This document shows positions 1 through 527 of a DNA stretch of 4,439 nt, piece after piece. This DNA comes from a virus. Lineage: Duplodnaviria > Heunggongvirae > Uroviricota > Caudoviricetes. Under the pieces are notes generated by a model that made no database searches, was not told the DNA's origin, and was given only the letters and a program-made list of their open reading frames with translations. The stretch lies in IMG/VR virus record IMGVR_UViG_3300029157_000003. One strand, written 5' to 3'. How positions within the stretch are numbered: the stretch's first letter is position 1; every line of letters begins with the position of its first letter. A program made the position numbers and the translations under genes.

Positions 1-316
1 TAATTTCACGATACAACCTGAAATCATTAATCCGGATAGCCTCCATAATTGCAGGCACTAGCGCCGTGAACTTTTCACGCTTATCCCTGGTGTCGATAGC
101 CTTCCAGCGTTCGAATATCTTCACTCGATTAACGCCAAGCGCTCGCTGATCAACCGCGCCACCTTCATCTGTGACACGCTGAACATCGATGTTCGGGCGC
201 TCTTTCAAAGCCCAGAATGCTTCAGTGATTAATATCGTCGCCTGCTCCTGTGTCATTCCTGGTCGACATATCCAGGCATCCAGAGCCTCACGAGCCTGTT
301 CAGGAGTGATTTTCAT
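1..316 (-). CDS. ydaT: YdaT-like prophage protein, second gene of the leftward Cro-like/YdaT operon; N-terminal 105 codons only, 3' end lies beyond the window start
   Basis: Minus-strand frame open from ATG (314-316) to position 2 with no stop (MKITPEQAREALDAWICRPGMTQEQATILITEAFWALKERPNID...KREKFTALVPAIMEAIRINDFRLYREI). Its start overlaps the upstream gene's stop (300-302) by 17 nt. Not in the ORF track because there is no in-window stop. Family call rests on remembered resemblance to Rac YdaT and on gene order. Confidence 0.6.
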   Translation of the reverse strand, partial: MKITPEQAREALDAWICRPGMTQEQATILITEAFWALKERPNIDVQRVTDEGGAVDQRALGVNRVKIFERWKAIDTRDKREKFTALVPAIMEAIRINDFRLYREI

Positions 317-527
317 TGTTCAACCGCCCCGCCCGCTTCGTCTTACGATATTCGTCATAAACCTTGGGATCATACAGAAGCTCGCCGCCAGATGCCTCCT
401 GTAGACGCATCGCGCGACCTTCAGGAACTAGCTCTTGCCATTGAGAAACAGCAGATGGGTCAACGCCAGCAGCTTTCGCTACTTTGGCTTTCGTACCGTA
501 AAAATTAATTACGTCTGATTTAAACAT
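300..527 (-). CDS. ydaS: Cro-like helix-turn-helix DNA-binding protein, YdaS family (75 aa)
   Basis: Minus-strand ORF; chosen start is the ATG at 527 (MFKSDVINFYGTKAKVAKAAGVDPSAVSQWQELVPEGRAMRLQEASGGELLYD...), preceded by GGAGGTG (531-537) at 3-nt spacing. The track's longer form from 554 has no such RBS. The GTKAKVAKAAGVDPSAVSQW segment is a typical Cro/YdaS-type HTH. Stop TGA at 300-302. Confidence 0.75.
   Translation of the reverse strand: MFKSDVINFYGTKAKVAKAAGVDPSAVSQWQELVPEGRAMRLQEASGGELLYDPKVYDEYRKTKRAGRLNNENHS

What the first reader, a model, noticed from the sequence alone, without database searches (positions are those of the whole stretch)
1..527. Cro-like/YdaT-like gene pair with 17-nt overlap: candidate repressor-held toxic module
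The Cro-like gene (300-527) and the YdaT-like gene (from 316 leftward) overlap by 17 nt, so they are translationally coupled and sit directly under the operator. In Rac-type prophages this pair is reported to be toxic when derepressed, which makes the repressor essential. The same genetic logic may apply here and would behave like an addiction module. The YdaT-like gene is incomplete in this window.
Basis: partly seen in the sequence, partly recalled or inferred. Interest (0 to 1): 0.5.

Follow-up and report, generated by a model that had tools for sequence, protein, structure and literature searches.

The report
Phage cro and cII-like regulator pair
These are the ordinary, already annotated "cro" and "cII-like" switch regulators at the start of the early operon of a Qin/mEp460-type lambda-like prophage of E. 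coli, not a new toxin or addiction module.

Summary
On the minus strand a 75-codon Cro-type gene (527..300) overlaps by 17 nt (300-316) a gene that starts at 316 and runs off the window (105 of 173 codons). The first is a DicC / P22-Cro family protein; it falls below the Pfam YdaS cut-off. The second is a diverged member of the YdaT family. Pfam, a profile comparison with Rac YdaT and a fold match to PDB 8BT1 all support this.

The window is the immunity region of a Qin-like lambdoid prophage. Identical DNA occurs in hundreds of E. coli genomes. The identical protein pair, with the same 17-nt overlap, occurs in isolated phages, annotated Cro / cII / replication O.

In E. coli K-12 the same pair is dicC-ydfX, and YdfX is the N-terminal 93 residues of this protein. 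The literature already calls YdfX the Qin YdaT homolog.

The best reading is Cro plus a CII analog of the lysis-lysogeny switch, held off by a DicA-type repressor through three operators. A YdaT-box-like inverted repeat spans the cII-like start codon, in the same register as the footprinted Rac box.

The toxic/addiction reading is at most a side effect. In K-12 Qin, dicA can be deleted once dicBF is removed. Novelty: already known. Interest is low.

The parts
300..527 (-). DicC-type Cro gene, 75 codons, first gene of the rightward (PR-like) early operon
   Evidence: NCBIfam DicC NF007282 165.3 bits (cut-off 130), model positions 1-75 of 75. Pfam P22_Cro 59.3 bits. Pfam YdaS_toxin 22.7 bits, below its cut-off of 30. 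PDB 1RZS (P22 Cro) E 1.9e-12. 70% identical to K-12 DicC, and identical from about residue 34 onward. PHROG 409, transcriptional regulator.
1..316 (-). YdaT-family (CII-analog) gene, first 105 of 173 codons, cut by the window edge
   Evidence: Translation. The full gene is in L001. Pfam YdaT_toxin 26.1 bits against cut-off 21. PHROG 163 'CII-like transcriptional activator', E 2.3e-40. hhalign against Rac YdaT 91%, E 1e-6. AF2 model of P0001 (97% identical), pLDDT 86.7; its only real PDB hit is 8BT1_C YdaT, probability 1.00. K-12 YdfX equals residues 1-93 at 98% identity.
300..316 (-). [quoted passage not shown]
   Evidence: Read directly from the sequence. The same overlap is annotated in K-12, HannyBb, PhiR42_1 and Klebsiella phage ST405-OXA48phi1.2.
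306..323 (-). YdaT-box-like imperfect inverted repeat TTGAAC-AATGAA-AATCAC, with the ATG of the cII-analog gene in the spacer
   Evidence: 9 of 12 matches to TTGATT-N6-AATCAA. It is in the same register (box starts at -7 from the ATG) as the DNase-footprinted Rac box ATGATT-CATGAA-AATCAA (PMC11879457). An nTGAnn-N6-nnTCAn element sits at -7 in 8 distinct junction sequences. Binding is inferred, not shown.
324..330 (-). Weak Shine-Dalgarno-like GGGGCGG, 7 nt upstream of the cII-analog ATG
   Evidence: Sequence. Relatives carry AAGGAG or AAGGTG at the same place.
554..583 (-). PR-like promoter of the dicC-type operon (-35 TTGACT, 18-nt spacer, -10 TAGCAT)
   Evidence: Consensus scan, 9 of 12. 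Its position matches dicCp of Qin. No transcript data.
541..603 (.). Three operator-like sites of the form TTGAG-N4-CTCAA (541-554 exact, 565-578 and 590-603 with 2 mismatches each), 24-25 bp apart, in an OR1-3-like arrangement
   Evidence: All five sites with at most 2 mismatches in the 4.4-kb window lie at the two promoter regions.
605..1012 (+). DicA-type repressor gene, 135 codons, divergent from the pair
   Evidence: NCBIfam DicA NF007257 239 bits (cut-off 101). Pfam HTH_3. 57% identical to K-12 DicA.
1077..1128 (+). OL/PL-like region: operator copies at 1077-1090 and 1113-1126, and a promoter-like site at 1100-1128 ahead of ydfA-ydfB-ydfC-dicF. This is the arm that carries the known toxic genes.
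   Evidence: DicF is at 2081-2132 (Rfam 76.7 bits). dicB and ydfD lie where the window has Ns.

Best explanation
The pair is the cro gene and the cII-equivalent gene of a Qin/mEp460-type lambdoid prophage of E. coli. In the lysogen, a DicA-type repressor (605-1012) binds three operators (541-603) that overlap the PR-like promoter and keeps both genes off. When repression fails, the DicC-type Cro is made first and represses the repressor gene, so the switch is bistable. The YdaT-family protein is made from the same transcript. It is a tetrameric helix-turn-helix activator that plays the role of lambda CII. It most likely binds the imperfect inverted repeat spanning its own start codon (306-323) and stimulates a weak leftward-reading promoter inside or next to the cro gene. 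That promoter would raise repressor synthesis and run antisense to cro. The next gene is an O-like replication initiator, so the order repressor / cro / cII / O is the classical lambdoid one. Shown here: gene identities, family membership, synteny, the operator and promoter layout, the conserved box and the conserved 17-nt overlap. Taken from published work on homologs: the DicA/DicC bistable switch, YdaT DNA binding and YdaT activation of a reverse promoter. Inferred: that this YdaT-like protein binds 306-323, that a PRE-like promoter exists here, and that the overlap couples translation. Any growth inhibition on forced expression is a by-product of two DNA-binding regulators acting on host promoters, not a dedicated toxin function.
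For: Context: window 1-1100 is 100% identical to many E. coli chromosomes. There it lies in a prophage next to rspB, followed by an O-like gene, DUF977, hokD, rem, RusA, an antiterminator and lysis genes. PHROGs call the three genes transcriptional regulator, CII-like transcriptional activator (E 2e-40) and replication initiation O-like (E 5e-91). An identical YdaT-like protein occurs in the isolated phages HannyBb and mEp460_ev081, and a 97.7% identical one in PhiR42_1. They are annotated CII-like activator or cII, sit between Cro and O, and show the same 17-nt overlap. Family: Pfam, NCBIfam, PDB, hhalign and fold results. R70 is invariant and W71 nearly invariant in 21 relatives; the hhalign alignment pairs them with R57/W58 of Rac YdaT, where the H56A/R57A variant lost DNA binding and W58 is described as fold-maintaining (PMC11879457). 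Diverged relatives in Citrobacter and Raoultella keep the order repressor / cro / ydaT / O-like / DnaC-like. The box is in the same register as the footprinted Rac box and recurs in 8 distinct junctions. Function of homologs: DicA/DicC form a bistable switch. YdaT activates PRE933P and PracR4. YdfX is named the Qin YdaT homolog.
Against: Nothing here is measured on this locus. The YdaT match is distant: about 27-33% identity in the DNA-binding domain, only 5 bits above the Pfam cut-off, Foldseek E 9e-3. The box is a poor palindrome in this locus (3 of 6 between the half-sites), and its right half overlaps codons 2-4, so coding constraint explains part of its conservation. No convincing reverse promoter was found by consensus scan (best 7 of 12), although activator-dependent promoters are expected to score badly. 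DicC and Rac YdaT are growth-inhibitory when over-produced, so a harmful effect of derepression is not excluded.
Confidence: 0.85

Rival explanations
1. Repressor-held toxic module (the first reader's reading, following the Rac racR-ydaST 'toxin-repressor' model). The Cro-like and/or YdaT-like protein is lethal at native derepressed levels. The DicA-type repressor is therefore essential because of this pair, and the locus resists loss of the repressor.
For: In Rac, racR essentiality was attributed to ydaS-ydaT (PMC5700373 and PMC5700377). [quoted passage not shown] DicC induction slows growth independently of dicBF-ydfD and, per the abstract, largely of the other Qin genes (PMC11430063). The gene here is full length, unlike the truncated K-12 ydfX.
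Against: In K-12 Qin, a dicA deletion is viable once dicBF is deleted, with dicC-ydfX still present. There the lethal arm is DicB/DicF/YdfD, and this prophage type carries that arm too. CP-933P YdaT showed no toxicity. Lambda CII is also toxic when over-produced but is not classed as a toxin (PMC5917428). The identical pair sits in viable, plaque-forming phages as cro/cII. Control that is only transcriptional cannot give post-segregational killing.
Confidence: 0.1
2. Classical type II toxin-antitoxin pair (YdaS antitoxin / YdaT toxin), as the Pfam family names suggest.
For: Only the Pfam names YdaS_toxin and YdaT_toxin, and the RefSeq product name 'toxin YdaT family protein'.
Against: The names come from a 2007 prediction that experiments did not confirm (PMC5917428, PMC8630535, PMC9986795). 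Both proteins are helix-turn-helix DNA binders. The upstream protein fails the YdaS cut-off. The order cro / cII / O and the divergent repressor explain the pairing.
Confidence: 0.02
3. Decaying, non-functional remnant of a cryptic prophage: the pair is no longer expressed or no longer does anything.
For: In K-12 the homolog ydfX is truncated to 96 codons, and Qin is defective. The window comes from a chromosome, not a phage particle.
Against: Here the gene is full length in the identical genomic copy. The protein is 100% identical to that of the isolated phages HannyBb and mEp460_ev081. The surrounding prophage keeps replication, antitermination, lysis, excisionase and integrase genes. The operators and promoter are intact.
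Confidence: 0.03

Closest known systems
dicC-ydfX of the cryptic prophage Qin, E. coli K-12 (immunity region dicA/dicC)
   Same: Same chromosomal site next to rspB, same gene order and same 17-nt overlap. Window 37-430 is 98% identical in DNA. YdfX equals residues 1-93 of the protein here at 98% identity. The C-terminal two-thirds of DicC is identical. The ydfABC-dicF arm is 99% identical.
   Different: In K-12 the cII-like gene is truncated to 96 codons, whereas it is intact (173 codons) in this prophage type. The segment 431-1133 (the DicC helix-turn-helix, the operators, DicA and the PL-like operators) is diverged: DicA 57% and DicC 70% identical. The operator is TTGAG-N4-CTCAA, which is absent from the diverged K-12 intergenic region. 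This is therefore a heteroimmune variant.
cro-cII-O of Escherichia phages HannyBb, mEp460_ev081 and PhiR42_1
   Same: The YdaT-like protein is 100% (HannyBb, mEp460_ev081) or 97.7% (PhiR42_1) identical. In HannyBb and PhiR42_1 the overlap is the same 17 nt, the next gene is the same O-like gene, and depositors annotate the proteins as CII-like transcriptional activator / cII and as transcriptional regulator / Cro.
   Different: Those are complete phage genomes, while the window is a chromosomal prophage copy. HannyBb has a different repressor gene (459 nt), so its immunity may differ.
ydaS-ydaT of prophages Rac (K-12) and CP-933P (O157:H7), with YdaT structures 8BT1 and 3C4R
   Same: Same position between the repressor and the replication genes. 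The same YdaT DNA-binding domain with the R-W pair in the recognition helix. An inverted-repeat box with a 6-nt spacer, over the ydaT start codon in Rac and at the end of ydaS in CP-933P. Homologs act as CII analogs that activate a reverse promoter towards the repressor gene.
   Different: Only about 27% identity to Rac YdaT. The protein is 173 rather than 140 residues, with a longer helix 2-3 loop and extra C-terminal helices. The residue before R-W is E69, where Rac has H56, and the half-sites are TTGAAC/AATCAC rather than TTGATT/AATCAA. The partner Cro is DicC/P22-Cro type, not YdaS type. The genes overlap by 17 nt, whereas a 22-nt gap separates them in Rac.
cro-cII of bacteriophage lambda
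   Same: Same place in the genome, and the same logic: cro first, then an activator of repressor establishment, then O. CII also binds at the cro-cII junction, and CII is also toxic when over-produced (PMC5917428, PMC9986795, PMC11879457).
   Different: No detectable sequence homology: there is no Pfam Phage_CII hit. Lambda CII recognises a direct repeat (my own knowledge), whereas YdaT proteins recognise an inverted repeat. This is an analog, not a family member.

Membership tests
YdaT family (Pfam PF06254; CII functional analogs) | Sequence match above the curated Pfam gathering score | tested here: met
   26.1 bits against cut-off 21, residues 59-131. All 21 members of a bridging alignment that includes Rac YdaT hit PF06254. 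PHROG 163 'CII-like transcriptional activator', E 2.3e-40.
YdaT family (Pfam PF06254; CII functional analogs) | N-terminal POU-like helix-turn-helix domain with the conserved Arg-Trp pair in recognition helix 3 | tested here: met
   hhalign against Rac YdaT gives 91%, E 1e-6, over residues 1-94. A profile search against the PDB finds 8BT1 (E 4.8e-4) and 3C4R (E 2.5e-3). N63, R70, L86 and P88 are invariant, and W71 is nearly invariant. The AF2 model (pLDDT 86.7, built on a 97% identical protein) has 8BT1_C as its only significant PDB match (probability 1.00, TM 0.62 on the target, 28% identity).
YdaT family (Pfam PF06254; CII functional analogs) | Long C-terminal helix that forms a four-helix bundle, giving a tetramer | tested here: inconclusive
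   The model has long helices at 111-130 and 135-164, and the alignment to 8BT1 spans 138 columns. Only a monomer was modelled, so the oligomeric state is not testable here.
YdaT family (Pfam PF06254; CII functional analogs) | Gene lies between a cro-type gene and the replication genes, divergent from the prophage repressor | tested here: met
   L001, HannyBb and PhiR42_1 have DicA-type repressor / Cro / this gene / O-like. The Citrobacter and Raoultella relatives have the same order.
YdaT family (Pfam PF06254; CII functional analogs) | Binds a 6-N6-6 inverted repeat at the cro/ydaT junction and activates a reverse promoter towards the repressor gene | not testable with these tools
   A candidate box, TTGAAC-AATGAA-AATCAC, lies at 306-323 in the Rac register. 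No reverse promoter scored above 7 of 12. This needs a footprint and a reporter assay.
DicC / P22 Cro family | Sequence match above the curated cut-offs (NCBIfam NF007282, Pfam PF14549) | tested here: met
   NF007282 165.3 bits against 130, full length. PF14549 59.3 bits against 30.2. P22 Cro 1RZS, E 1.9e-12.
DicC / P22 Cro family | Divergently transcribed from a DicA/C2-type repressor, with shared repeated operators in the intergenic region | tested here: met
   DicA model 239 bits. Three operator-like sites at 541-603 interleave with the promoter.
YdaS family (Pfam PF15943) | Sequence match above the Pfam gathering score | tested here: not met
   22.7 bits against cut-off 30. The protein is related at superfamily level (Cro-type HTH) but is better placed in P22_Cro/DicC.
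Lambda CII family (Pfam Phage_CII) | Sequence homology to lambda CII | tested here: not met
   No Pfam family other than YdaT_toxin at E <= 0.01. The protein works like CII by position and by its homologs' activity, but it is not a member.
Toxin-repressor or toxin-antitoxin (addiction) module | The product is lethal at native derepressed level, so the repressor is essential because of it | not testable with these tools
   The closest evidence is negative: a K-12 dicA deletion is viable in a dicBF deletion background with dicC-ydfX present, but ydfX is truncated there. DicC and Rac YdaT over-expression is growth-inhibitory.
Toxin-repressor or toxin-antitoxin (addiction) module | Post-segregational killing: a stable toxin outlives a labile antidote after the locus is lost | not testable with these tools
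   It is not expected. Silencing is transcriptional, so losing the locus removes the genes as well (PMC5700373). The whole Rac prophage can be deleted.

The most novel reading that the evidence does not exclude
In intact Qin-type prophages, the full-length YdaT-like protein could be a second lethal arm held down by the DicA-type repressor, independent of DicB/DicF. The K-12 stump YdfX would not have this property. The protein might act on host promoters, as Rac YdaT does at rcsA. Its conserved box over its own start codon (nTGAnn-N6-nnTCAn at -7) would tie together three things on one 18-bp site: the end of cro, the start of cII-analog translation, and activation of the repressor-establishment promoter.
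Probability: 0.15. Interest if true: 0.35.

Novelty: already known. Interest (0 to 1): 0.1.

Why it matters
It matters little beyond correct annotation. The result shows that the 'toxin YdaT family protein' label on this gene in RefSeq is misleading. The gene is the cII-equivalent of a widespread Qin/mEp460-type lambdoid prophage, and its partner is a DicC-type Cro. Three points may be useful. First, K-12 YdfX is simply the DNA-binding domain stump of this protein. Second, the 17-nt cro/cII overlap and the inverted repeat over the cII-analog start codon are conserved across Escherichia and Klebsiella phages. That gives a ready target for anyone footprinting this YdaT subfamily. Third, in Qin-type elements the experimentally supported lethal genes (dicB, dicF, ydfD) lie on the other side of the repressor gene. 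Tests of 'repressor essentiality' should separate the two arms.

Tried and rejected
1. The first AlphaFold run, on a 7-sequence alignment, gave pLDDT 53. It was discarded and repeated with 23 sequences, giving pLDDT 86.7.

A 97% identical database protein (P0001) was used as the first row instead.

3. The search for related loci with the broad alignment A5 failed because no stretch was conserved enough. The narrower A3 gave only 9 loci.

4. The RNA fold of the junction (266-385, minus strand) has no structure beyond shuffles (z = 0.45). There is therefore no evidence that a hairpin enforces translational coupling.

5. A relaxed sigma-70 scan of the + strand over 290-610 for a PRE-like promoter found nothing better than 7 of 12, so no promoter is claimed.

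6. The inverted repeat I4 (304-318 against 552-566, 13 of 15) looked like a second YdaT site at the PR-like promoter. By my estimate about 0.7 such pairs are expected by chance in 1250 nt. The K-12 counterpart of the second arm is unrelated. The idea was rejected as unsupported.

7. The direct repeat TTCGTC-N8-TTCGTC (337-356) resembles the direct-repeat arrangement of lambda CII sites. It is at chance level, its second copy is TTCATC in K-12, and YdaT proteins bind inverted repeats. It was not adopted.

8. The alternative TTG start at 554, which would give an 84-codon Cro ORF, was rejected. The ATG at 527 has a strong Shine-Dalgarno, and the DicC model covers residues 1-75 exactly.
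Full report
**What is in the sequence**

On the minus strand, an ORF runs from the ATG at 527 to the TGA at 302-300. It has 75 codons and is preceded by GGAGGTG at 536-530. Its product is MFKSDVINFYGTKAKVAKAAGVDPSAVSQWQELVPEGRAMRLQEASGGELLYDPKVYDEYRKTKRAGRLNNENHS.

A second minus-strand ORF starts at the ATG at 316 and is still open at window position 1, giving 105 codons that begin MKITPEQAREALDAW. The two genes share positions 300-316, which is 17 nt.

**Where the window comes from**

Window 1-1100 is 100% identical to many complete E. coli chromosomes: 786 of 5426 genomes carry at least 80% of it, and 2538 carry part. 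In one of them (L001, NZ_CP031134) the window lies in a lambdoid prophage next to rspB-rspA, which is the site of the cryptic prophage Qin in K-12.

The gene order there is integrase, excisionase, exonuclease, ydfD, dicB, (dicF), ydfC, ydfB, ydfA and an HTH repressor. After the repressor, on the other strand, come the 'Cro/CI family' gene, the 'toxin YdaT family protein' gene (173 codons), a 321-codon gene, DUF977, hokD, rem, DUF968, RusA, an antiterminator, tRNAs and lysis genes.

The rest of the window agrees with this. YdfA, YdfB and YdfC lie at 1205-1738 and DicF RNA at 2081-2132 (Rfam 76.7 bits). A run of 100 N at 2274-2373 stands in for about 775 nt that hold dicB, ydfD and the start of the exonuclease gene in L001.

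**Identity of the three regulators**

- **The 75-residue protein is a DicC / P22-Cro type Cro.**
  - It scores 165.3 bits on NCBIfam DicC (cut-off 130), covering model positions 1-75 of 75.
  - It scores 59.3 bits on Pfam P22_Cro (cut-off 30.2).
  - It matches the solved P22 Cro structure 1RZS at E 1.9e-12.
  - On Pfam YdaS_toxin it scores 22.7 bits, below the cut-off of 30. It is Cro-like, but it is not a YdaS-family member in the strict sense.
- **The divergent + strand gene (605-1012) is a DicA-type repressor.** It scores 239 bits on NCBIfam DicA (cut-off 101).
- **The 173-residue protein passes Pfam YdaT_toxin.** It scores 26.1 bits against a cut-off of 21. It also matches PHROG 163, 'CII-like transcriptional activator', over its whole length at E 2.3e-40.

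Because the Pfam margin is small, I tested YdaT membership in four further ways:

- A profile of close and 40%-identical relatives finds the two solved YdaT structures in the PDB, 8BT1 at E 4.8e-4 and 3C4R at E 2.5e-3, and nothing else.
- An exhaustive profile search of 1.84 billion representatives finds a small family of 80 clusters. It grades into canonical 'MKIKHEQIR...LLPAILEAMP' YdaT sequences.
- In a 21-sequence alignment that includes Rac YdaT, every member hits PF06254. N63, R70, L86 and P88 are invariant and W71 is nearly so. The hhalign alignment pairs R70/W71 with R57/W58 of Rac YdaT. There the H56A/R57A variant lost DNA binding, and W58 is described as maintaining the domain fold (PMC11879457). 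hhalign against Rac YdaT gives 91% probability and E 1e-6 over residues 1-94.
- An AlphaFold model built on 23 sequences, with a 97%-identical database protein (P0001) as the modelled sequence, has pLDDT 86.7. Its only meaningful PDB match is 8BT1_C, 'YdaT transcription regulator (CII functional analog)', with probability 1.00, TM 0.62 on the target and 28% identity.

The protein is therefore a diverged YdaT-family member. It has a longer loop between helices 2 and 3 and extra C-terminal helices.

**Genomic logic**

The gene after the YdaT-like gene is an O-like replication initiator (PHROG 391, E 5.4e-91). The order repressor / cro / cII-position gene / O is thus the classical lambdoid immunity-replication layout.

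The 40%-identical relatives in Citrobacter and Raoultella keep the order repressor / Cro-type / YdaT / HTH_36 (O-like) / DnaC-like.

An identical YdaT-like protein occurs in the phages HannyBb and mEp460_ev081, and a 97.7% identical one in PhiR42_1. In HannyBb and PhiR42_1 depositors annotate the genes as transcriptional regulator or Cro, CII-like transcriptional activator or cII, and replication initiation O-like. A tblastn with a canonical-type YdaT finds 67 phage genomes, and many of the listed hits are labelled cII or CII-like.

**Relation to E. coli K-12**

In MG1655 the same place holds dicC (b1569) and ydfX (b1568), which overlap by the same 17 nt. YdfX (96 aa) is 98% identical to residues 1-93 of the protein here. 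It is therefore a truncated YdaT-like gene that keeps only the DNA-binding domain. Wons et al. 2025 already call YdfX 'Qin prophage YdaT homolog' and DicC 'Rac prophage YdaS homolog' (PMC11879457).

At DNA level, window 37-430 and 1134-1300 are 98-99% identical to K-12, but 431-1133 is diverged. The diverged block covers the helix-turn-helix half of DicC, the intergenic operators, DicA (57% identical) and the operators ahead of ydfA. This is the usual immunity-cassette mosaicism, so the window is a heteroimmune variant of Qin.

**Control region**

Sites of the form TTGAG-N4-CTCAA occur at 541-554 (exact), 565-578 and 590-603 (two mismatches each), 24-25 bp apart. Further copies lie at 1077-1090 and 1113-1126.

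These five are the only sites with at most two mismatches in the 4.4-kb window. Shuffles give a mean of 2.3 such sites and reach 5 in 14 of 200 trials, so the count alone is not significant; the clustering at the two promoter regions is what suggests operators.

A promoter-like site on the minus strand (-35 TTGACT at 583-578, -10 TAGCAT at 559-554) is interleaved with the first three sites. A second promoter-like site on the + strand (1100-1128) sits among the other two.

This matches the OR/PR and OL/PL layout described for dicCp and dicBp in Qin (bioRxiv 10.1101/2023.04.14.536235).

**The junction**

On the coding strand the overlap region reads GGGGCGG-TTGAAC-AATGAA-AATCAC-TCCTGA. The 18-mer TTGAAC-AATGAA-AATCAC (window 306-323) matches the YdaT operator consensus TTGATT-N6-AATCAA at 9 of 12 positions.

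It holds the ATG in its spacer, just as the DNase-footprinted Rac 'YdaT-box' ATGATT-CATGAA-AATCAA does (PMC11879457).

I compared 13 loci. An nTGAnn-N6-nnTCAn element starts exactly 7 nt before the YdaT start codon in 10 of them, representing 8 distinct junction sequences. These include loci whose upstream cro genes belong to a different family and are read in a different frame. Within -60 to +30 the motif occurs only twice elsewhere.

Part of this conservation reflects coding, since Ile3 is always ATC. The upstream half lies outside the YdaT reading frame.

The 17-nt overlap arises because the DicC-type reading frame runs through this box (...L N N E N H S stop). YdaS-type cro genes stop at the ATGA instead, giving a 4-nt overlap. 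Klebsiella phage ST405-OXA48phi1.2 pairs a DicC-type Cro (63% identical) with a canonical-length YdaT (33% identical) and has the same 17-nt overlap. The overlap is thus an old, conserved property of this junction and is not peculiar to this window.

**How it most likely works**

These points are published for homologs:

- DicA represses dicCp and dicBp. DicC represses dicA. The two form a bistable switch.
- YdaT of CP-933P and of Rac is a tetrameric HTH protein. It binds the inverted repeat at the ydaS/ydaT junction and activates a reverse promoter (PRE933P, PracR4) that raises repressor expression (PMC8630535, PMC9986795, PMC11879457).

By homology, position and the conserved box, I infer the same for this locus. 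The pair would be Cro and the CII analog of the early right operon. I could not find a convincing reverse promoter by consensus. The junction RNA shows no significant structure. Translational coupling therefore remains a plausible but untested inference.

**The toxic-module reading**

[quoted passage not shown] DicC induction also slows growth independently of dicBF-ydfD and, per the abstract, largely of the other Qin genes.

Five points argue against it as the primary function:

- Jobling (PMC5917428) and Jurenas et al. argue that these are regulators whose over-production is harmful, as for lambda CII.
- CP-933P YdaT was not toxic.
- In K-12 Qin, dicA can be deleted when the dicBF operon is removed, while dicC-ydfX stays. 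There the lethal genes are on the other arm, which L001 also carries (dicB, ydfD) and of which the window shows ydfABC and dicF.
- The identical gene pair is part of isolated, viable phages.
- Silencing that is only transcriptional cannot give post-segregational addiction, as the RacR authors note.

What remains open is whether the full-length YdaT-like protein, unlike the K-12 stump, is harmful at native derepressed levels.

**Verdict**

The feature is an already known and already annotated cro/cII-analog pair of a common E. coli prophage type. Interest is low.

Noticed in passing
window 431-1133: Immunity-cassette mosaic. DNA is 98-99% identical to K-12 Qin on both sides (37-430 and 1134 onward) but diverged in between. 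The diverged block covers the helix-turn-helix half of DicC, the operators, DicA and the OL-like operators. The left boundary falls inside dicC. This makes the prophage a heteroimmune variant of Qin.
   Followed up: partly
window 2274-2373: A run of 100 N replaces about 775 nt of the reference copy (L001 14273-15047). That stretch holds dicB, ydfD and the 5' end of the exonuclease gene. The best-known toxic genes of this immunity region are therefore hidden in the window.
   Followed up: partly
window 2081-2132 (+): DicF small RNA, full-length Rfam match (RF00039, 76.7 bits against gathering score 48), downstream of ydfC.
   Followed up: yes
window 463-476 and 680-693: A perfect 14-nt inverted repeat (ACGCCAGCAGCTTT / AAAGCTGCTGGCGT). 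Both arms encode K-A-A-G-V, in frame, in the helix-turn-helix of the DicC-type Cro and of the DicA-type repressor. By my estimate about 0.003 such pairs are expected by chance in 1250 nt. It may reflect common ancestry or exchange between the two DNA-binding domains.
   Followed up: no
window 337-356 (+): Direct repeat TTCGTC-N8-TTCGTC inside the 3' part of dicC, followed by TGgGATCAT (365-373), a weak extended -10-like sequence facing the repressor gene. It is at chance level, and the second copy is TTCATC in K-12.
   Followed up: partly
L002 5347-5637 (E. coli K-12 ydfX, b1568): YdfX (96 aa) is the N-terminal 93 residues of the 173-residue YdaT-family protein at 98% identity. It is a truncated CII-analog that keeps only the DNA-binding domain. 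The deletion end point corresponds to window position 36/37.
   Followed up: yes
L020 190-826 (Klebsiella phage ST405-OXA48phi1.2): A DicC-type Cro (63% identical) is joined to a canonical-length YdaT (141 aa, 33% identical) with the same 17-nt overlap and the box GTGAAT-CATGAA-AATCAG at -7. The junction architecture is conserved across genera and across YdaT subfamilies.
   Followed up: partly
window 2374-4439 (+): A long ORF that runs off the window's right end. It is 92% identical in DNA to the 2472-nt 'exonuclease' gene of L001. It contains a CxxC...CxxC stretch (about 3759-3800). I did not examine it further.
   Followed up: no
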